DNA from: Candidatus Woesearchaeota archaeon
GTDB taxonomy: Archaea; Nanobdellota; Nanobdellia; Woesearchaeales; GW2011-AR9
Direction: 5' to 3'
Assembly: GCA_018696595.1 (NCBI GenBank)
Contig: JABHQW010000002.1
Coordinates: 38,420-102,419, forward strand
DNA length: 64,000 bases
Shown: positions 6,357 to 43,924 of the stretch, piece after piece
Numbering within the stretch: the stretch's first letter is position 1
Layout of the letters: each line of letters opens with the position of its first letter
Program-made: the position numbers and the translations under genes
Notes under the pieces: generated by a model
What the model saw: the letters and a program-made list of their open reading frames with translations, nothing else
What the model was told of the DNA's origin: nothing
Databases searched by the model: none

Positions 6357-6425
6357 TATTGTTTTCAGGGGGAAGTTGATTTATAAACATTGTGAAGAAA
6401 ATGGCAATGTTTTGAATAAGGAACA

Positions 6426-6557
6426 TTTGTATACTGCGTGCCGGCGCGTGGATTTTTGGAGTAGCGCTAAAGGAGGCACATTTTACGAATCTTATGAGTA
6501 AAATCTAGGGTGCCGTGCCCTACTCCAAAAATGCGCCTATTGCAGGCAGTATACAAA
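6426..6557. ncRNA. Unassigned GC-rich structured intergenic element (nested hairpin)
   Basis: 12-bp perfect terminal stem TTTGTATACTGC/GCAGTATACAAA enclosing GGCGC/GCGCC, ATTTTTGGAGTAG/CTACTCCAAAAAT, GGCAC/GTGCC and ATTTTAC/GTAAAAT stems. Confidence 0.55.
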
Positions 6558-6619
6558 ATAGTGTTATTCTAAACAAAGACAAAGAAAAATTTAAATAAAT
6601 CAACTTCTTACCTATTGGA

Positions 6620-9854: not shown

Positions 9855-10484
9855 TCAATACTCTACTCCTCTTCTAGCCATCTGGCCTTTATCAAAATAA
9901 TGTTTTCTGGGCATCATTTCTGTTATTAAATCAGCGATTACTTTTATTTCTTCTGGGGCATCCCGGCCAGTTAAAACTAATTCTGTGTGGACTGGCTTTT
10001 TCTCGATTAGTTCCATTACTTCGGCAATATCTAATAAACCTAGGGCCATCGCCACATTAATCTCATCCAAAATAACTAATTGGTATTGTCCTGAATTAAC
10101 CACTTCCAATGTTTTTTTAAATGCTTCTTTAGCATAATCTTTCTGAATTTCATCATTCAAGAAACAGTAACGGCAGGTTCCACAATCAATATCATCACGG
10201 ATAAAATCAAACAAAGTTTTATCTCTACTTCCTTTCTGACTAAATCCATCAATCTTAAGCTGTTTCTGTTGTTTTATGCATGGTCGGCCAAACTGGGCAA
10301 TGTCCATTTTTGGAAGGTAATTCTTGATAGCAATATATTCTCCAGTGTAAGCGCCACCTTTCATAAACTGAACTACAAAAACCTTAAATCCTTGCCCAAT
10401 TGCTCTCATCCCTAAACCTAGAGCGGCGGTAGTTTTACCTTTACCTTCTCCAGTATAAACATGTATTAACCCTCTTTTAGACAT
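9855..10484 (-). CDS. cobO: ATP:corrinoid adenosyltransferase (CobA/CobO/BtuR type) with Cys-rich insertion
   Basis: IHVYTGEGKGKTTAALG, VQFMKG, LVILDEIN, ELVLTGR, KHYFDKG..ARRGVEY. Confidence 0.93.
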   Translation of the reverse strand: MSKRGLIHVYTGEGKGKTTAALGLGMRAIGQGFKVFVVQFMKGGAYTGEYIAIKNYLPKMDIAQFGRPCIKQQKQLKIDGFSQKGSRDKTLFDFIRDDIDCGTCRYCFLNDEIQKDYAKEAFKKTLEVVNSGQYQLVILDEINVAMALGLLDIAEVMELIEKKPVHTELVLTGRDAPEEIKVIADLITEMMPRKHYFDKGQMARRGVEY

Positions 10485-10507
10485 TGTTATTTTGTGTATT
10501 TTAAATT

Positions 10508-10630
10508 ATGAGCAGGGCCGAGTTCGCTTCTTCTATGTAAAATAAGAGTGCGGTTCCCCCCGGATGGGGCTTCCCCCACCGCAGACTGATGTTTTCTTCT
10601 ATAAAACGCTCACGAGTTGGCGCTGCTCAT
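10508..10630 (+). ncRNA. Unknown K-turn-containing structured RNA, copy A
   Basis: Terminal stem ATGAGCAG/CTGCTCAT plus GCCGA..TTCG/CGAG.TTGGC with G-U pairs (favours + strand); core 10546-10594 aligns without gaps to copy B with compensatory changes. Confidence 0.65.
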
Positions 10631-10639
10631 TGTATCTGA

Positions 10640-13177
10640 TTATAACTCACAGCTGCCTTTGAATCCGCACTGGCTGGAACATTCTGTACAACCACCAATC
10701 TTGACCATCACTCCTTCCTTACAAGCCGGACAACGTTGACCTGCTTTTGATCCGTACTCTTCTGAATTATCAACAAACGATTCTTTTTTTGTTGCAATAT
10801 TTTTTTCAATCTCTTCTTCATTTTTGCCTTCTGCGCTAAGAGCATTCTTAGTTTCAGTATCTTCTGAGGTAGATAAAACTTGTTCTGCTCTACTTTGGTC
10901 CACATAAACTGTTAATCCTTTACAGCCAAGATCATAACCCATCTCATAAATTTTCTTAGTTTCCTCTACAGTGAAGCCACTTGGAACATTAACTGTTTTA
11001 CTGATTGAAGAATCTGTCCATTTTTGAATTACTGCTTGTGTTCGAACATGATCTTCTGGTTTTAGGTCCATCGCAGCAACAAAGTAATTTGGGAAAGACC
11101 CATCTTCTTGTTTTGCTTCTTCAGCAATTGGAATTAAGACTTTATGGAATCCTAGTCTTGACTGTTGATAATATTCAAACGCATAGTAGGGTTCAATTCC
11201 AGTAGATGTATTTAACATACTGCCAACAGTGCCAGTTGGTGCTTGAGTAGTTAAAGTTACATTTCTCATTCCATTCTTGTAAATAGTATCTTGTACTTCT
11301 TTAGATAACTGTTTAACAAATTCTGATTGCATAAACTTTTCTCGATTATATCTTGGGAATGAACCTTTTTCACTAGCTAATTCGCTAGAAGCTAGGTACA
11401 TCTCTTCAATAATTGTTTTATACAATTTGTCTAAGAAAATTAAACTATCCTCTGCCCCATACTTGATTCTTAATTTGATTAGCAGTTCTGCCAACCCTAA
11501 AGTGCCAGCACCAATTCTTCTTTCTGATTTCTGGTTCTTTTCATTCTCTGCGAAATGATAAGGGGTTAAGTCAATGATGTTGTCCAAGAATCTAATCAAT
11601 ATGCGGGCAGATTTCTTTAACTGTTCCCAATCCATCTCATAAATCTTACCAATCGGATCAGTTCCAACTTGTTTAGCAAAACTTGCTAAATATAAATGTC
11701 CCAAATTACAAACTCCCCAGGCAGGTAAACCTTGTTCTCCACAAGGGTTTGTACAGATTAGTTCATTATAATACCAAGAATTGCTTAACTTATTGTACCG
11801 TTCCATGAACACTACACCTGGTTCGGCACTTTTATGAGCAGAACTAATAATTAAGTCCCATAATTCTCTGGCATTAATAGTTTTGTAAACTTTTGTTGGG
11901 TATCCTTTCTTTTTCCAAGTTCTAACGTTACCATCCCATTCATTTTCATAAGCTTCAAAATTTTCTTCATAATCTGGATATTCTAAATTCCACATGCCAT
12001 TACTTTTTACTTTTTCCATGAACTCATCTGATACTTTAACAGAAATGTTAGCATTTTCAATCATTCCTTTTTGTTTTTTTGATCCAATAAACTCAATTAC
12101 GTCTGGGTGCCAATCATCTAACATTAACATTAATGCTCCTCTTCTCGATCCGCCTTGTTCAATCAAACCAGTAGCGAAAGAATAAATTCCTCCCCACGAA
12201 ACAGCTCCTGAAGATTTCCCATGTACTCCTCTTACAATCGCATATCTTGGTCTTAATGTTGATAGGCAAAGTCCCACTCCTCCACCTCGAGACATGACTT
12301 CTGTTAATACTCCTAACGTTTCTAAGATTCCTCCCCTTGAATCTTTTGGGGAAGGTAAAACGTAGCAGTTATACAAAGTCCAATTAGAAATTACTTCTCC
12401 TCCTTTGCTAGAGGTTGCTCCAGCCATGATTCTTCCTGCTGGTTGGATTCTTTTTTGTTTAAGTTCTTCTAAAAATTCTTTTTCCCAAAAGTTTTTTCTC
12501 TCAATGTTATCTTCTAAGCTGGAAGCAGCTTTAGCAATTCTTTTGTAAGAATCTAATACTGCTTCTTGCGCTTTGTCAACTTTCCAGATTGATTGGGAAA
12601 ACTCTTTTTCTAAATCTATTAAATAGAACTTTCCTAATTCTCCTTCTATTGAAAGAGTAATTGCTAACTCTTTTTTTGGAAAGCGAGAATCTTCTTTTGT
12701 GATAACAATTACTAAGTCACCAACACGAATATTTCTATCTTGATCTTTTTGTGAGTATCGGTCTAAGAAAATTAATCTTCCTAACTTGCTGAAACCCTTA
12801 GAATTGTTTAAAATGTGAATTGCTTGGGCACTTAAATAGATGTCTTTACTTAATAAATTGTCTACATTTTTACAATTACTTATTGCGGACTCATTTCTTA
12901 CTAAAGATCTTCTGTATCTATAAATAATAAACTCTTTTGCTAATTCTACGTGTCCTTCTTCAATCAGAACTTTTTCTACCACATCTTGAACAATCTCAAT
13001 ATCGGGAACTTCATCATCCATTAATTCTAAATATTCAGTAATCTTATTTGCCAGTTCGTTTGCTAACGGTAAGTTTGGTTCTCCAATTGATTGTGATGCT
13101 TTAAATATTGCATTAGCAATTCTGGAAACATCAAACTTTGTAGCAATTCCATCTCTTTTTTTAATTTGTTCTATCAT
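10640..13177 (-). CDS. nrdJ: Class II (adenosylcobalamin-dependent) ribonucleotide reductase with N-terminal ATP-cone and C-terminal Zn ribbon
   Basis: IKKRDG ATP-cone, PAGRIM, LYNCYVL, GGGVG, TNPCGEQGL, CNLG, TTQAPTGT, DSSISKTVN, CPAC..GGCTEC. Confidence 0.95.
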   Translation of the reverse strand: MIEQIKKRDGIATKFDVSRIANAIFKASQSIGEPNLPLANELANKITEYLELMDDEVPDIEIVQDVVEKVLIEEGHVELAKEFIIYRYRRSLVRNESAISNCKNVDNLLSKDIYLSAQAIHILNNSKGFSKLGRLIFLDRYSQKDQDRNIRVGDLVIVITKEDSRFPKKELAITLSIEGELGKFYLIDLEKEFSQSIWKVDKAQEAVLDSYKRIAKAASSLEDNIERKNFWEKEFLEELKQKRIQPAGRIMAGATSSKGGEVISNWTLYNCYVLPSPKDSRGGILETLGVLTEVMSRGGGVGLCLSTLRPRYAIVRGVHGKSSGAVSWGGIYSFATGLIEQGGSRRGALMLMLDDWHPDVIEFIGSKKQKGMIENANISVKVSDEFMEKVKSNGMWNLEYPDYEENFEAYENEWDGNVRTWKKKGYPTKVYKTINARELWDLIISSAHKSAEPGVVFMERYNKLSNSWYYNELICTNPCGEQGLPAWGVCNLGHLYLASFAKQVGTDPIGKIYEMDWEQLKKSARILIRFLDNIIDLTPYHFAENEKNQKSERRIGAGTLGLAELLIKLRIKYGAEDSLIFLDKLYKTIIEEMYLASSELASEKGSFPRYNREKFMQSEFVKQLSKEVQDTIYKNGMRNVTLTTQAPTGTVGSMLNTSTGIEPYYAFEYYQQSRLGFHKVLIPIAEEAKQEDGSFPNYFVAAMDLKPEDHVRTQAVIQKWTDSSISKTVNVPSGFTVEETKKIYEMGYDLGCKGLTVYVDQSRAEQVLSTSEDTETKNALSAEGKNEEEIEKNIATKKESFVDNSEEYGSKAGQRCPACKEGVMVKIGGCTECSSQCGFKGSCEL

Positions 13178-13178
13178 T

Positions 13179-13622
13179 TTAACTTCCTCCTTTAATAATC
13201 GTGTTGATTTCTTTTTTCAATATTTCTGGGTCATCAATTTCTTTATGTACAGAAGCGAATCTGAGATACGATATTTTGTCATGTTTTTTTAATTCTTTTA
13301 AGACTACTTTTCCAATCTCGCTTGTTTTTAATGGGTTCATCTTTTTGTTTAATATTCTCATTTCAATTTTTTTTGTAAGGTTGGTTAGAATTTCTTCTGG
13401 GGTTTTTCCACAAGCTTTACTTACGCTTTCTTCAATTTTTTTTAGGTTGAATTCTTGCTCTTTCCCATCTCTTTTAATCACTTTAAAATGGATCTTAGCT
13501 TTTTCATAAGTTGTAAATCTGTTTGTACAATTTAAACATTCCCTTCTTCTCCTTATTGATTCATTGAGAAGTCTAGATTCAAGCACTTTTGTATCTGTTT
13601 TTGAGCAAAATGGACAATACAT
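13179..13622 (-). CDS. nrdR: Transcriptional repressor NrdR
   Basis: MYCPFC..KVLESR..IRRRRECLNCTNRFTTYE, ATP-cone VIKRDG, YLRFASVHK; 1 bp from nrdJ. Confidence 0.95.
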   Translation of the reverse strand: MYCPFCSKTDTKVLESRLLNESIRRRRECLNCTNRFTTYEKAKIHFKVIKRDGKEQEFNLKKIEESVSKACGKTPEEILTNLTKKIEMRILNKKMNPLKTSEIGKVVLKELKKHDKISYLRFASVHKEIDDPEILKKEINTIIKGGS

Positions 13623-13646
13623 CTTTTCACCTTTTTTAATAGCGAC

Positions 13647-13693
13647 ACACTACATCTGGGGGTCTTTGTTGTTTTGGTTTCCCCATCTTGTGT
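13647..13693. promoter_or_regulatory. Tandem NrdR boxes upstream of nrdR-nrdJ
   Basis: ACACTACATCTGGGGG (13647-13662) and TTTCCCCATCTTGTGT (13678-13693) resemble acaCwAtATaTwGtgt, starts 31 bp apart; TTTAAA box on - strand at about 13720-13725. Confidence 0.7.
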
Positions 13694-13809
13694 TTTCTGT
13701 TTTTTAGAAAAATAATTGGTTTAAATACTTTCTAGTGTTATGGTATATATTCTCTAAACTACAAATGTATTCCAATAATCTTTTAAACCCAAACATTTTC
13801 CTTTAACTT

Positions 13810-14328
13810 ATGATTTTAATGTTAATCTTGAAAAGTTTGTATTTCTTTTTGCCAGCTTACCTAGCAAATCTTATTCCACCATTGTTGAAGAATGTTCCTT
13901 TTCTAGACAAACCAGTTTCAGAAAAACATTTTGGCAGTCATAAAACTTGGCGAGGAATTGTAGCGGCAATTATTTTAGGGGGATTTGTATTTTGGTTACA
14001 GAAAATTTCTTACTTTAATGGGTATACCAAACTTGCTTTAATTGATTACAATGGTTTTTCGGTCTTGTTAGGCTTTCTGTTAGGTGCAGGAGCAATCTTT
14101 GGAGATTTAGTTAAAAGTTATTTTAAAAGAAAGTCTGGTGTTAAACCAGGAGAATCTTGGAAACCGTGGGATCAACTTGATTTTGTTATTGGTGCAATCT
14201 TATTATCTTTTTTTGTTTACGTTCCCAGAGCGGAAGTGATTTTAGTTCTTTTACTTGTTAGTCCTTTGTTACACATCTTGTTTAACTTATTGGGATATTG
14301 GCTGAAGATCAACAAGAGTGTTTGGTGA
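13810..14328 (+). CDS. carS: CDP-archaeol synthase (DUF46)
   Basis: LPAYLAN, KTWRG, GAIFGDLVKSYFKR..G..PG..W..WDQLDF. Confidence 0.9.
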   Translation: MILMLILKSLYFFLPAYLANLIPPLLKNVPFLDKPVSEKHFGSHKTWRGIVAAIILGGFVFWLQKISYFNGYTKLALIDYNGFSVLLGFLLGAGAIFGDLVKSYFKRKSGVKPGESWKPWDQLDFVIGAILLSFFVYVPRAEVILVLLLVSPLLHILFNLLGYWLKINKSVW

Positions 14329-14330
14329 CT

Positions 14331-14918
14331 CTACGCTTTTCTTATTTCTTTAACAAAATGCTGTAATTGTAAAGCTAAAGAATAAACGATAAACCCACCA
14401 ACAATTAAGTAAGTTGCCGTAAGGATAAAAGTATTGCCAATTGGGTGAAATAAGATTCCAATTGGATAGAACATGAACGGAATTAACAAACCGGTTCTTA
14501 CAAACACTACTGGGTATTCAAATTTAGAAGAGAAGTAAACTAATTGAGTTATAATTAACAATCCTAATATAATATAAACATAGTAATCTTGTAAGTACCA
14601 ACCTAATTTAATTAAAGTTATAATAGCAATTGTTCTGTCTGTAATCAAATCATAATATTGTCCAAATTTAGTTGGTTGAGAAGCTTTAGCAATTAGTCCA
14701 TCTAAACCATCGGCAATTAAATGTAATATTGCAAAGACAACAAATAACAAATGGTTAGAGAATAGAAAGTAAACTGTTAAGATTCCTAATATTAATGAGA
14801 TGGTGGTCATAGTGTTGGCAGAGATTCCTAAATCATAGAAAAACCGACCCCATTTTAAAAAATTCTTTTCTTTAAATTCTCTGCATTTGGCCACAAACTT
14901 TTGATTTGAACTTTCCAT
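14331..14918 (-). CDS. CDP-alcohol phosphatidyltransferase family
   Basis: ISANTMT, D-G-x2-D-G-x2-A-K-x6-FG-x3-D-x3-D signature (ADGLDGLIAKASQPTKFGQYYDLITDR). Confidence 0.88.
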   Translation of the reverse strand: MESSNQKFVAKCREFKEKNFLKWGRFFYDLGISANTMTTISLILGILTVYFLFSNHLLFVVFAILHLIADGLDGLIAKASQPTKFGQYYDLITDRTIAIITLIKLGWYLQDYYVYIILGLLIITQLVYFSSKFEYPVVFVRTGLLIPFMFYPIGILFHPIGNTFILTATYLIVGGFIVYSLALQLQHFVKEIRKA

Positions 14919-14973
14919 CAGAAAGATATATATAACAGAGACTATATAAAAAGTTTCCTATATAATGGCTTTA

Positions 14974-15113
14974 CAGTAAGTATAGTTAGCATCGACTCAC
15001 TCTTTTGTTTGTGGATCTGATTGTGGTCCTCCCCGTAAGGGACGTCCCCCACCACAGAAAGATGTTTAGTCGATTATATCGTTCGTATATTGATGCTAAC
15101 TAAACTTATACTG
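14974..15113 (+). ncRNA. Unknown K-turn-containing structured RNA, copy B
   Basis: 13-bp stem TAGTTAGCATCGA/TTGATGCTAACTA extended by CAGTA/TACTG; K-turn CTGA (15017-20) / AAA-GATG (15058-64); TATATAAA box about 25 nt upstream of the stem. Confidence 0.7.
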
Positions 15114-15124
15114 CTTATAACAAA

Positions 15125-15778
15125 ATGAAACGACTATTTATTGAGACTAAATATGAAGGCAAACTGACTTTGCCAAAGGAATTAATAGAACAATTACCAC
15201 AAAAGATTGTTCTAGCTATGCCTGTACAGTTTCTTGATTTTGTAGATTCTATTAAAGAACAATTAGTGGGGAAAGAAGTTACTTTATTCAAAAGCAAACA
15301 TGGAATGCATCCTGGACAAGCTTTAGGTTGCGCCATTGAGAAGTTTCCTGGAGATTTTGAAGTGTTCCTTTACATTGGCGATGGTAAGTTTCATCCAACA
15401 GCTTTATTATATGAGAACGAGAAGAAAGTTTATTGTTACAATCCTTTTAATAATCAGATTGAAATTTTAGATCAAGATTATTTAGAAAAAGTTCATAAGA
15501 AAAGAAAAGGTCAGTTAGCAAAATTCTTATCTTCAGATAATATTGGTTTATTAGTTACTACTAAACCTGGTCAGAATCAAAGTAAGAAAGCTGAAGAGTT
15601 ACGTTTGAAGCTAGAAGAGAAAGGCAAGAACGTTTTTGTTTTCCTTGCCGATGATATTGATTTTAATTCTTTAGAAAACTTTAATTTTATTGAATCTTGG
15701 ATAAATACTGCTTGCCCTCGAATTGTTGAGGATTTTAAGTGTTTAAATTGGATGGATTTAGCCGAGATTGGATTCTAA
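15125..15778 (+). CDS. dph2: Diphthamide biosynthesis protein Dph2-like, short form
   Basis: GQALGC, YIGDGKFHP, GLLVTTKPGQ, INTACPRI. Confidence 0.88.
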   Translation: MKRLFIETKYEGKLTLPKELIEQLPQKIVLAMPVQFLDFVDSIKEQLVGKEVTLFKSKHGMHPGQALGCAIEKFPGDFEVFLYIGDGKFHPTALLYENEKKVYCYNPFNNQIEILDQDYLEKVHKKRKGQLAKFLSSDNIGLLVTTKPGQNQSKKAEELRLKLEEKGKNVFVFLADDIDFNSLENFNFIESWINTACPRIVEDFKCLNWMDLAEIGF

Positions 15779-43831: not shown

Positions 43832-43924
43832 GCGGGAGTAGTATAGTGGTTAGTATACGGCGTTGCCAATAGCTTTTCGCTAAGTAAAGACGCTGTGACC
43901 TGGGTTCAAGTCCCAGCTCTCGCA
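43832..43924 (+). tRNA. tRNA-Gly(GCC) with canonical intron 43869-43889
   Basis: GCGGGAG/CTCTCGC, CGGCG-TT-GCC-AA-CGCTG, BHB helix TTGC/GTAA. Confidence 0.95.

What the first reader, a model, noticed from the sequence alone, without database searches (positions are those of the whole stretch)
10508..10630. Copy A of a repeated K-turn RNA with compensatory covariation (partner at 14974-15113)
Seen: a gapless core alignment. A 10546 GAG-TGCGGT-TC-CCCC-CGGAT-GGGG-CTT-CCCCC-ACCGCA-G-ACT-GATGTTT; B 15019 GAT-TGTGGT-CC-TCCC-CGTAA-GGGA-CGT-CCCCC-ACCACA-G-AAA-GATGTTT. Two independent C-G to T-A compensatory changes, one in each stem; a conserved unpaired CCCCC; a 3-nt bulge followed by GA/GA (K-turn geometry). 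The flanking sequences are unrelated, yet each forms a long terminal stem and side hairpins. Copy A lies between nrdJ and cobO, antisense to them. Inference: a novel L7Ae-binding ncRNA family under structural selection, with the C5 loop perhaps a docking or pseudoknot site and variable arms acting as guides.
Basis: partly seen in the sequence, partly recalled or inferred. Interest (0 to 1): 0.8.

Follow-up and report, generated by a model that had tools for sequence, protein, structure and literature searches.

The report
Relic copies of a structured archaeal MITE
The two look-alike "RNAs" are real, but they are worn-down copies of a small jumping DNA element common in one order of tiny archaea. 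Its folded 120-nt core is kept intact even after the element's ends have decayed, and it is not a K-turn RNA.

Summary
Copies A (10507-10631) and B (14981-15104) share a GC-rich core with compensatory changes. The reading as a K-turn/L7Ae guide RNA does not hold.

- **Family size.** This 1.19-Mb genome has 9 copies. A covariance model finds 1 to at least 23 copies in 47 of 151 genomes of the same order. Rfam has no match.
- **Structure.** The whole ~125 nt is homologous and folds into P1, P2 (with an invariant UC/UC internal loop), and a junction of P3/P4/CCCCC plus P5. 92.6% of cells are paired against 69% in shuffles, and 24 of 26 pairs covary.
- **K-turn.** The GA/GA signature occurs in only 3 of 39 members.
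- **Mobility.** Both sites are empty in two genomes of the same genus, and no copy is shared within the genus. In relatives the same core lies in a 165-bp element with 14-bp inverted ends (GGCTCTGT...) and 9-bp target duplications. These elements insert 15-17 bp upstream of the TATA boxes of leaderless genes (34 of 40).
- **Constraint.** In one relative the stems carry 8-fold fewer private substitutions than the inverted ends. In this genome the ends are gone and the cores are intact, so the fold appears to be selected in place.

The function and the transposase are unknown, and no RNA data exist. Earlier follow-ups of this scan called sister hairpin families in this genome MITE-like, and I agree.

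The parts
10507..10631 (+). Copy A, whole unit as matched by the family covariance model (core-only relic with no inverted ends)
   Evidence: R2 scores 119 bits, E 2e-26, over model positions 1-124. R1 scores 130 bits.
10508..10519 (+). A: P1 5' strand. It pairs with 10619-10630, with one G-G opposition at 10516/10622.
   Evidence: MFE fold. P1 pairs covary in 39 members, with 95.6% of cells paired.
10619..10630 (+). A: P1 3' strand
10522..10527 (+). A: P2 5' strand GUUCGC. G-C and U-A pairs, then the invariant unpaired UC, then G-C and C-G pairs with 10608-10613.
   Evidence: RNAalifold pairs covary (TTCGC/GCTCA versus CTCAC/GTTCG). TC is invariant on both strands.
10608..10613 (+). A: P2 3' strand GCUCAC, with the second invariant UC
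10528..10548 (+). A: J2/3, a pyrimidine-rich variable single strand
   Evidence: Variable within and between genomes.
10549..10583 (+). A: P3 (10549-10554 with 10578-10583) encloses the P4 hairpin (10557-10560, loop 10561-10565, 10566-10569) and the unpaired C5 run (10573-10577).
   Evidence: P3 and C5 are almost invariant among 19 copies in G217.
10584..10607 (+). A: J3/5 (GACUGAU, the supposed K-turn strand) and the small P5 hairpin (10591-10595 with 10603-10607)
   Evidence: Fold. 'GA' at the K-turn position on this strand occurs in 5 of 39 members. P5 is weakly supported (78% paired).
10498..10507 (-). TATA-like box of cobO, directly abutting the 5' end of copy A
   Evidence: Sequence. The spacing differs from the canonical 15-17 bp, which fits loss of A's outer parts.
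14960..15124 (+). Copy B, whole inserted segment (165 nt, the canonical element length). It includes a degenerate end GGCTTTACAGTAAG at 14967-14980.
   Evidence: The site is empty in G001 and G002. Contigs in runs X9 and X10 join 14959 to 15125 (weak, 28-nt side). Canonical length is 164-166.
14981..15104 (+). Copy B, unit matched by the covariance model
   Evidence: R2 scores 116 bits, E 1e-25.
14974..14993 (+). B: extended P1 5' strand, pairing with 15092-15113
   Evidence: Fold, z-score -4.0.
14995..15000 (+). B: P2 5' strand ACUCAC, pairing around the UC/UC loop with GUUCGU at 15081-15086
15022..15056 (+). B: P3 (15022-15027 with 15051-15056), P4 (15030-15033, loop 15034-15038, 15039-15042) and C5 (15046-15050)

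Best explanation
A and B are two of nine relic copies of a non-autonomous transposable element (a MITE) that is widespread in this order of small AT-rich archaea.

Shown for the canonical element in related genomes:
- It is 165 bp long, with 14-bp terminal inverted repeats (GGCTCTGTCCTGAA or GGCTCTGTAGAAAA).
- It makes 9-bp target-site duplications.
- It lands 15-17 bp upstream of the TATA box of a gene, mostly a leaderless one, whose promoter fires away from it.

Inferred: a transposase supplied in trans moves it. A longer repeat with the same ends exists in one relative, but only as contig-end stubs.

Shown for the interior: one strand (the + strand here) folds into P1, P2 with an invariant UC/UC internal loop, and a three-way junction of P3/P4 with an unpaired C5 run plus P5. 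This fold is held by selection more tightly than the inverted repeats. In this genome the repeats and duplications have decayed or been deleted, while the cores are intact.

Inferred (about 0.35): the core acts in place as a folded single strand, either RNA made by read-through or single-stranded DNA, that a protein recognises through the UC/UC loop and the C-run. One possible role is a structural or insulating module in front of promoters. It is not a K-turn or L7Ae guide RNA.
For: **Family and fold**
- 9 copies in the genome.
- 20 of 60 relatives and 47 of 151 genomes of the order carry it, with up to at least 23 copies. None was found outside the order in a phylum sample.
- Covariation: 92.6% of cells paired against 68.9% in shuffles and about 40% in slid controls. 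24 of 26 pairs change on both sides.

**Mobility**
- The A and B sites are empty in G001 and G002.
- Of G002's four copies, two lie at sites that are clearly empty in G000, a third has no family copy at the matching G000 site, and the fourth is at a contig end.
- Two identical copies in G033 lie at different sites with target duplications.
- Among 40 elements bounded by the inverted repeats, 22 have duplications matching at 8 or 9 of 9 positions.
- Copies lie in all orientations and no protein family recurs next to them.

**Target preference**
- A TATA-like hexamer starts 15-17 nt beyond one end in 34 of 40 elements.
- In 33 of 37 such flanks a start codon with an open frame follows, mostly 25-32 nt after the TATA.

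**Constraint on the core**
- In 19 G217 copies, private substitutions per cell are 0.051 in the inverted repeats and 0.006 in the stems plus C5 (Fisher p 8e-8). J2/3, which lies between the stems, is variable, which argues against gene conversion.
- All 23 elements of 161-167 bp found by their inverted repeats keep a recognisable core.
- G000 has no intact pair of inverted repeats, yet its cores score 89-119 bits.

**Strand**
- The outer pair of P4 is U-G in 13 members and C-A in 3. Overall there are 55 G-U pairs against 21 A-C.

**Candidate partner**
- Eight G217 contig ends stop inside a longer repeat with the same inverted repeat. An ORF starts 44 nt inside one end, and an ORF runs out through the other end.
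Against: - A and B themselves show no clear inverted repeats or target duplication, so their origin as MITE copies rests on homology of the core and on the empty sites.
- No transposase gene was found between such ends. ISL3, IS256 and Y1 transposase genes and IS1595- or IS4/5-type genes with matching ends were not found.
- The constraint test uses copies that are related to each other and come from one genome.
- Expression, and whether the folded strand is RNA or DNA, could not be tested.
- B lies between a TATA box and the start codon of the Dph2-like gene, which is not the canonical geometry.
Confidence: 0.75

Rival explanations
1. A family of independent, trans-acting small RNA genes, such as guide or sponge RNAs. 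The variable J2/3 and P5 stretches would select targets, and MITE shells would merely spread the genes.
For: - Covariation is strong and there are invariant unpaired nucleotides.
- Wobble pairs are strand-specific.
- The stems are constrained in place while J2/3 varies.
- Length variants carry an insertion at one defined site, as in structured RNAs.
Against: - No promoter lies at a fixed distance upstream of the copies, and there is no terminator.
- No copy is shared between species of one genus.
- Copy number ranges from 0 to at least 23 among related genomes.
- Five G000 copies share nearly the same J2/3, which is odd for guides.
- The neighbouring promoters fire away from the element.
Confidence: 0.15
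2. A K-turn RNA bound by L7Ae, related to C/D or H/ACA guides.
For: A and B have GA on both strands flanking a 3-nt bulge next to P3. There is one weak sub-threshold Rfam match to a C/D family (sR35, 13 bits against a gathering score of 60).
Against: - GA on both strands occurs in 3 of 39 members. The 3' strand is mostly AAUG or UAUG.
- A has a G-G opposition where the C-stem should close.
- C/D boxes are not conserved.
- Rfam has no hit at gathering thresholds.
Confidence: 0.03
3. A hairpin transposon moved as single-stranded DNA by a HUH/Y1 transposase, of the IS200/IS605-PATE or REPIN/RAYT type. The conserved imperfect hairpin would be the enzyme's recognition structure.
For: - The fold is strand-specific and has invariant mismatches (UC/UC) on one strand.
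- The core is conserved more than the ends.
- An earlier follow-up of this scan named REPINs as closest for a sister family.
Against: - Clean 9-bp target duplications and 14-bp terminal inverted repeats are marks of staggered-cut transposition, which IS200/IS605 and REPINs lack.
- Y1 transposase genes were found in only 2 of 10 element-rich genomes and not in G000.
Confidence: 0.05
4. A cis-regulatory leader or riboswitch of the downstream gene, for example cobalamin-related for cobO or SAM-related for Dph2.
For: B lies directly upstream of, and in sense to, the Dph2-like gene. A lies next to cobO and a B12-type RNR.
Against: - A is antisense to both of its neighbours.
- Copies occur in all four orientation classes next to unrelated genes.
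- Congeners have the same genes without the element.
- There is no Rfam riboswitch hit.
Confidence: 0.02

Closest known systems
Prokaryotic MITEs (for example Correia/NEMIS of Neisseria, Sulfolobus SM-type MITEs)
   Same: Small (82-416 bp) with no ORF, terminal inverted repeats, fixed-length target duplication, many copies, and patchy presence among relatives. They are intergenic and fold into a long hairpin. Several interiors share one pair of ends.
   Different: The interior is not neutral filler. It is a three-way-junction fold with invariant unpaired nucleotides, conserved across an order and more constrained than the inverted repeats. Insertion is aimed at a fixed distance from archaeal TATA boxes. 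No autonomous partner has been identified.
REPINs/RAYT and IS200/IS605-derived PATEs
   Same: Hairpin elements whose stems change in pairs while an imperfect core is kept. The signal is strand-specific.
   Different: Those make no target duplication and have no true terminal inverted repeats. Here 9-bp duplications and 14-bp inverted repeats are the rule, and Y1 transposases are mostly missing.
K-turn RNAs bound by L7Ae (archaeal C/D and H/ACA sRNAs)
   Same: A GC-rich structured RNA-like element in an AT-rich archaeal genome. A and B formally show a 3-nt bulge followed by GA.
   Different: The tandem G-A pairs are not conserved (3 of 39). There are no C/D or ACA boxes. The element is mobile and varies in copy number.
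Promoter-targeting eukaryotic elements (Ty3 at Pol III start sites via TFIIIB/TBP); from general knowledge, not tested here
   Same: Integration at a fixed short distance from a TBP-bound promoter element, which spares coding sequence.
   Different: This is an archaeal host and a DNA-type element with inverted repeats and target duplication, not a retrotransposon. No interaction with TBP or TFB has been shown.

Membership tests
MITE (non-autonomous element with terminal inverted repeats and target duplication) | Short, no coding capacity, many dispersed copies | tested here: met
   ~125-165 nt with no ORF. 9 copies in G000 and up to at least 23 in relatives.
MITE (non-autonomous element with terminal inverted repeats and target duplication) | Terminal inverted repeats | tested here: inconclusive
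   Met in relatives (GGCTCTGTCCTGAA/TTCAGGACAGAGCC). Not met in A. Only a degenerate trace in B (GGCTTTACAGTAAG). G000 has no intact pair.
MITE (non-autonomous element with terminal inverted repeats and target duplication) | Target-site duplication of fixed length | tested here: inconclusive
   9 bp in relatives, with 22 of 40 matching at 8 or 9 of 9 positions. One 14-bp case in G002. None is recognisable at A or B.
MITE (non-autonomous element with terminal inverted repeats and target duplication) | Presence/absence polymorphism at orthologous sites | tested here: met
   A and B are absent from G001 and G002. Two G002 copies lie at sites that are clearly empty in G000, and none of the four is shared with G000. 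There is a weak population-level joint across B.
MITE (non-autonomous element with terminal inverted repeats and target duplication) | Autonomous partner with the same ends that encodes a transposase | tested here: inconclusive
   Only contig-end stubs of a longer repeat with the same inverted repeat were found in G217. Transposase genes found elsewhere have other ends.
K-turn / L7Ae-binding RNA | Tandem sheared G-A/A-G pairs next to a 3-nt bulge, conserved in homologues | tested here: not met
   GA on both strands in 3 of 39 members.
K-turn / L7Ae-binding RNA | Binding by L7Ae | not testable with these tools
   Needs EMSA or RIP.
Box C/D sRNA | C (RUGAUGA) and D (CUGA) boxes plus C'/D', with 12-nt guides | tested here: not met
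   No conserved boxes in the alignment. Rfam C/D matches are far below threshold.
Any Rfam 15 family (riboswitches, ribozymes, RNase P, SRP, 5S, HgcC and others) | Covariance-model score at or above the gathering threshold | tested here: not met
   Only two tRNAs in the window reach threshold. Nothing meaningful appears at E up to 10 around A or B. The 5S rRNA is elsewhere in the genome.
REPIN/RAYT or IS200/IS605 PATE | No target duplication, and a Y1/HUH transposase in the genome | tested here: not met
   9-bp duplications are present. Y1_Tnp was found in 2 of 10 genomes and not in G000.

The most novel reading that the evidence does not exclude
The 120-nt core is a functional folded module, either RNA or single-stranded DNA bound by a protein through the UC/UC loop and the C-run. 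A transposon that targets promoters spreads it through the genomes of these archaea, and the host keeps it after the transposon ends have decayed. This would be domestication of a mobile structured element placed at a fixed distance in front of archaeal promoters, which in turn implies that a transposase reads the TBP/TFB-bound promoter.
Probability: 0.3. Interest if true: 0.8.

Novelty: new variant of a known kind. Interest (0 to 1): 0.55.

Why it matters
- It removes a tempting false lead. This is not a new L7Ae guide RNA.
- It defines an order-wide family of repeats in DPANN-type archaea that is absent from Rfam. Two full-text literature searches found no description of it.
- Two features are unusual for MITEs. 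The interior fold is under stronger constraint than the transposition ends. Insertion occurs at a fixed 15-17 bp from TATA boxes of leaderless genes.
- If confirmed, the second feature would be a rare case of promoter-guided integration in archaea, and a handle on how streamlined genomes tolerate or exploit mobile DNA.
- For annotation, the covariance model lets hundreds of "orphan structured RNAs" in these genomes be recognised as one family.

Tried and rejected
**Known RNA families**
- Rfam at gathering and E-value thresholds gave nothing.
- ARAGORN found nothing here.
- 5S rRNA is excluded, because the real 5S is at C3:117107.
- A hammerhead-like CUGAUGA occurs only in A and is not conserved (by eye).
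- K-turn: not conserved.

**Genomic context**
- No protein family recurs next to the copies.

**Search for the transposase**
- ISL3 and IS256 were not found in 10 element-rich genomes.
- IS4/5-type genes are present in 3 genomes but have other ends.
- Y1 is present in 2 genomes.
- IS1595-type genes occur in 3 of 60 genomes, also with other ends.
- Solo inverted-repeat loci in G012, G050 and G022 lie next to ordinary genes.
- An apparent 2.2-kb pair of inverted repeats in G033 lies inside coding sequence.
- The interior of the long G217 repeat was not found in the bin, in 400 genomes of the order, in one metagenome scan (stubs only) or in IMG/VR.

**Viral contigs**
- One hit to the core pattern was not confirmed by the model.
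- The 14-mer inverted-repeat sequences give only single hits per contig, as chance would in so large a collection.

**Taxonomy**
- Naming the organism by protein relatives failed, because only distant organisms were returned.

**Expression and read data**
- No RNA holder was listed for this stretch.
- Parts of the stretch without contig cover say nothing.
- The joint 10535 to 15031 in run X14 is another family member, not a deletion.

**Not done**
- Complementarity of the variable arms to rRNA or tRNA was not tested.
- No structure-aware significance test such as R-scape was available.

Full report
**1. The observation**

The two stretches are as described. The cores at 10546-10594 and 15019-15067 align without gaps. 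A 22-nt degenerate pattern taken from them matches only these two places in the window, where 0 matches are expected by chance. Both stretches fold with long terminal stems (folding z-scores -2.7 and -4.0 on the + strand).

Copy A lies between a CobA/CobO/BtuR gene (9855-10484, minus) and a ribonucleotide reductase gene (10640-13177, minus). Copy B lies between a CDP-alcohol phosphatidyltransferase gene (14331-14918, minus) and a Dph2-like gene (15125-15778, plus).

Two sub-claims fail:
- The flanks are not unrelated.
- The K-turn is not a property of the family.

**2. Size and shape of the family**

A pattern search of the whole 1.19-Mb assembly (GC 32%) found 7 copies. A covariance model built from them found 9 solid copies.

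The seven copies align over about 125 nt. RNAalifold and my own reading give this fold:
- P1 is a terminal stem whose sequence differs from copy to copy but stays paired.
- P2 has two pairs on each side of an invariant 2x2 UC/UC loop. Its pairs covary (TTCGC/GCUCA in A, CUCAC/GUUCG in B).
- A long pyrimidine-rich J2/3 follows.
- P3 encloses the P4 hairpin and an unpaired C5 run.
- A small, weakly supported P5 follows.

On 39 members from 20 genomes:
- 92.6% of pair cells are standard pairs, against 68.9% in shuffles and about 40% when partners are slid.
- 24 of 26 pairs show changes on both sides.

That alignment was fitted to the model, so the figures lean towards the structure. The independent MAFFT alignment of seven copies already gave 15 of 26 pairs with double changes.

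G-U pairs outnumber A-C oppositions 55 to 21. The outer pair of P4 is U-G in 13 members and C-A in 3. The strand given as + here is therefore the one that folds.

Rfam 15 has no match at either threshold. The genome's 5S rRNA is elsewhere.

**3. The K-turn**

I counted GA two and three nucleotides before P3, and GA after the 3-nt bulge on the 3' side, in all 39 members. 15 have the first, 5 have the second, and 3 have both. Those three are A, B and one copy from another genus. The 3' strand is mostly AAUG or UAUG. In A the position that should close the C-stem is a G-G opposition. The L7Ae reading is therefore not supported.

**4. It is mobile DNA**

- **Distribution.** All hits in a phylum-wide sample lie in the same order.
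- **Orientation and neighbours.** Copies are intergenic in all orientation classes, and no protein family recurs beside them.
- **A and B are absent from congeners.** In two other species of the genus (about 77% nucleotide identity in the flanking genes), cobO-RNR and the transferase-Dph2 junction are adjacent without the element. B corresponds to a clean insertion of about 165-170 nt.
- **G002's copies are not shared with G000.** Of its four copies, two lie at sites that are clearly empty in G000. A third has no family copy at the matching G000 site. The fourth lies at a contig end and cannot be judged. One has a 14-bp direct duplication of the target.
- **Population data.** Contigs from two seawater metagenomes join 14959 directly to 15125. 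This is weak evidence (28-nt side, 88% threshold).

**5. The canonical element**

In other genera the core lies between further inverted repeats. In G217, a member of the same GTDB family with at least 21 copies, the unit is 165 bp. It consists of:
- the inverted repeat GGCTCTGTCCTGAA,
- a 13-nt one-sided bulge,
- the core,
- the inverted repeat TTCAGGACAGAGCC.

Across 40 such elements from five genomes, the 9 bp on either side match at 9 of 9 positions in 12 and at 8 of 9 in 10.

The same ends enclose other interiors of 132, 226, 286 and 416 bp, and in one case only a 27-bp hairpin. The 226-bp class is this core with an insert of about 60 nt between P3 and P4. An 82-bp form keeps only P1 and P2.

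**6. Target choice**

Reading outward from the ends, a TATA-like hexamer starts 15-17 nt beyond one inverted repeat in 34 of 40 elements. Almost none start at other offsets. In 33 of 37 such flanks a start codon with a frame open to the end of the available flank follows. It mostly lies 25-32 nt after the TATA, which is the geometry of leaderless archaeal genes (the geometry is from general knowledge).

The element therefore lands just upstream of the BRE/TATA of a promoter that fires away from it. Core orientation relative to that promoter is mixed in G217 (by my reading of the flanks, more copies have the TATA on the core's 5' side).

**7. Constraint on the core**

In 19 G217 copies (one divergent copy, L158, was left out), private substitutions per cell are:
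- 0.051 in the inverted repeats,
- 0.019 in the unpaired stretches,
- 0.006 in P1, P2, P3 and C5.

The difference between inverted repeats and stems gives Fisher p 8e-8. Of 56 changed pair cells in the inverted repeats, 40 are broken.

J2/3 lies between P2 and P3 and is variable, which makes gene conversion an unlikely cause. Because I first picked copies by model score, I re-ascertained them by their inverted repeats. All 23 elements of 161-167 bp carry a recognisable core of at least 52 bits.

In G000 no intact pair of inverted repeats exists, yet the nine cores score 89-119 bits.
- A sits in a 155-nt spacer that is too short to hold the inverted repeats, and its 5' end abuts the cobO TATA-like box.
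- B has the canonical length but only a trace of an inverted repeat.

The simplest reading is old insertions whose ends decayed or were deleted while the fold was kept. This is an inference. It rests on one genome's statistics and on related copies.

**8. The transposase**

It is not identified.
- ISL3 and IS256 genes were not found. Y1 genes were found in only 2 of the 10 element-rich genomes searched.
- The IS4/5-type and IS1595-type genes that were found have other ends.

In G217, eight contig ends stop 52-55 nt inside a longer repeat that begins with GGCTCTGTCCGGAA. One kind of end has an ATG 44 nt inside. At the other kind, an open frame runs out through the inverted repeat. This looks like the autonomous partner, collapsed in assembly. 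Its interior could not be recovered.

**9. What it does**

- **Shown:** a single-strand fold under selection, mobile spread, and promoter-proximal targets.
- **Not shown:** whether the folded strand is RNA or DNA, and what binds it. No RNA runs hold this organism.

My best guess (about 0.35) is a protein-recognised module that acts in place, possibly as a structural or insulating element in front of promoters. An sRNA gene family remains possible (0.15). It is weakened by the lack of a promoter at a fixed distance, the absence of shared loci within a genus, and copy numbers from 0 to at least 23.

**10. Relation to earlier notes of this scan**

- First-reader notes on other contigs describe the same family read on the other strand, for example the C8 copies, which my model confirms.
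- Earlier follow-ups called sister hairpin families of this genome MITE-like or REPIN-like mobile elements of Woesearchaeota.
- I reached the empty sites and target duplications before reading those notes, and I agree on mobility.
- I disagree with the REPIN comparison, because 9-bp duplications and true terminal inverted repeats are the rule here.
- The organism's name could not be verified with the tools.

Noticed in passing
L064-L083, L139-L158 (related genomes G050, G022, G012, G033, G217): MITEs with GGCTCTGT... ends insert so that a TATA-like hexamer starts 15-17 nt beyond one end (34 of 40). A start codon with an open frame follows, mostly 25-32 nt later. This indicates promoter-guided insertion upstream of leaderless genes.
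   Followed up: yes
L404-L411 (G217 contig ends); L412-L415 (groundwater metagenome contigs): Eight contig ends break 52-55 nt inside a longer repeat with the same inverted repeat (GGCTCTGTCCGGAA). One end has an ATG 44 nt inside, and at the other an ORF runs out through the inverted repeat (...VIPDRA). This is the likely autonomous element. Its interior was not recovered.
   Followed up: partly
L071, L072, L077 (G022); L162-L164, L165 (G217); L090 (G050): The same inverted ends enclose other interiors:
- a 132-bp family that also has a GT[TC]GT / AT[TC]AC loop like P2;
- a 226-bp form of this core with a ~60-nt insert between P3 and P4;
- an 82-bp internal deletion;
- a 27-bp hairpin made of the inverted ends alone, with a target duplication.
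   Followed up: partly
window 43832-43924 (+): A tRNA gene with a 23-nt intron in the anticodon loop is found by Rfam (52 bits) but missed by ARAGORN. This supports an archaeal origin.
   Followed up: no
window 14940-14966 and 15114-15124: Copy B lies between the TATA-like box (14943-14952) and the start codon of the Dph2-like gene, which in congeners are 7 nt apart. The gene must now be read through the element or from a new promoter. A second TATA-like box (14959-14966) lies at the element's edge.
   Followed up: partly
L130 (G002:C87) 2781-2946; G000 C3:349812, C4:80691, C3:284212, C5:44844 (the last is window about 6425-6559): A different ~150-nt repeat lies next to a G002 copy of this family. 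It has at least four relatives in G000, one of them inside this window. It is probably one of the sister hairpin families noted by other readers.
   Followed up: no
window 10596-10600: Environmental contigs (runs X9, X10, X14) carry a 1-nt deletion and a 1-nt insertion in the P5 loop of copy A, while the stems are unchanged.
   Followed up: no
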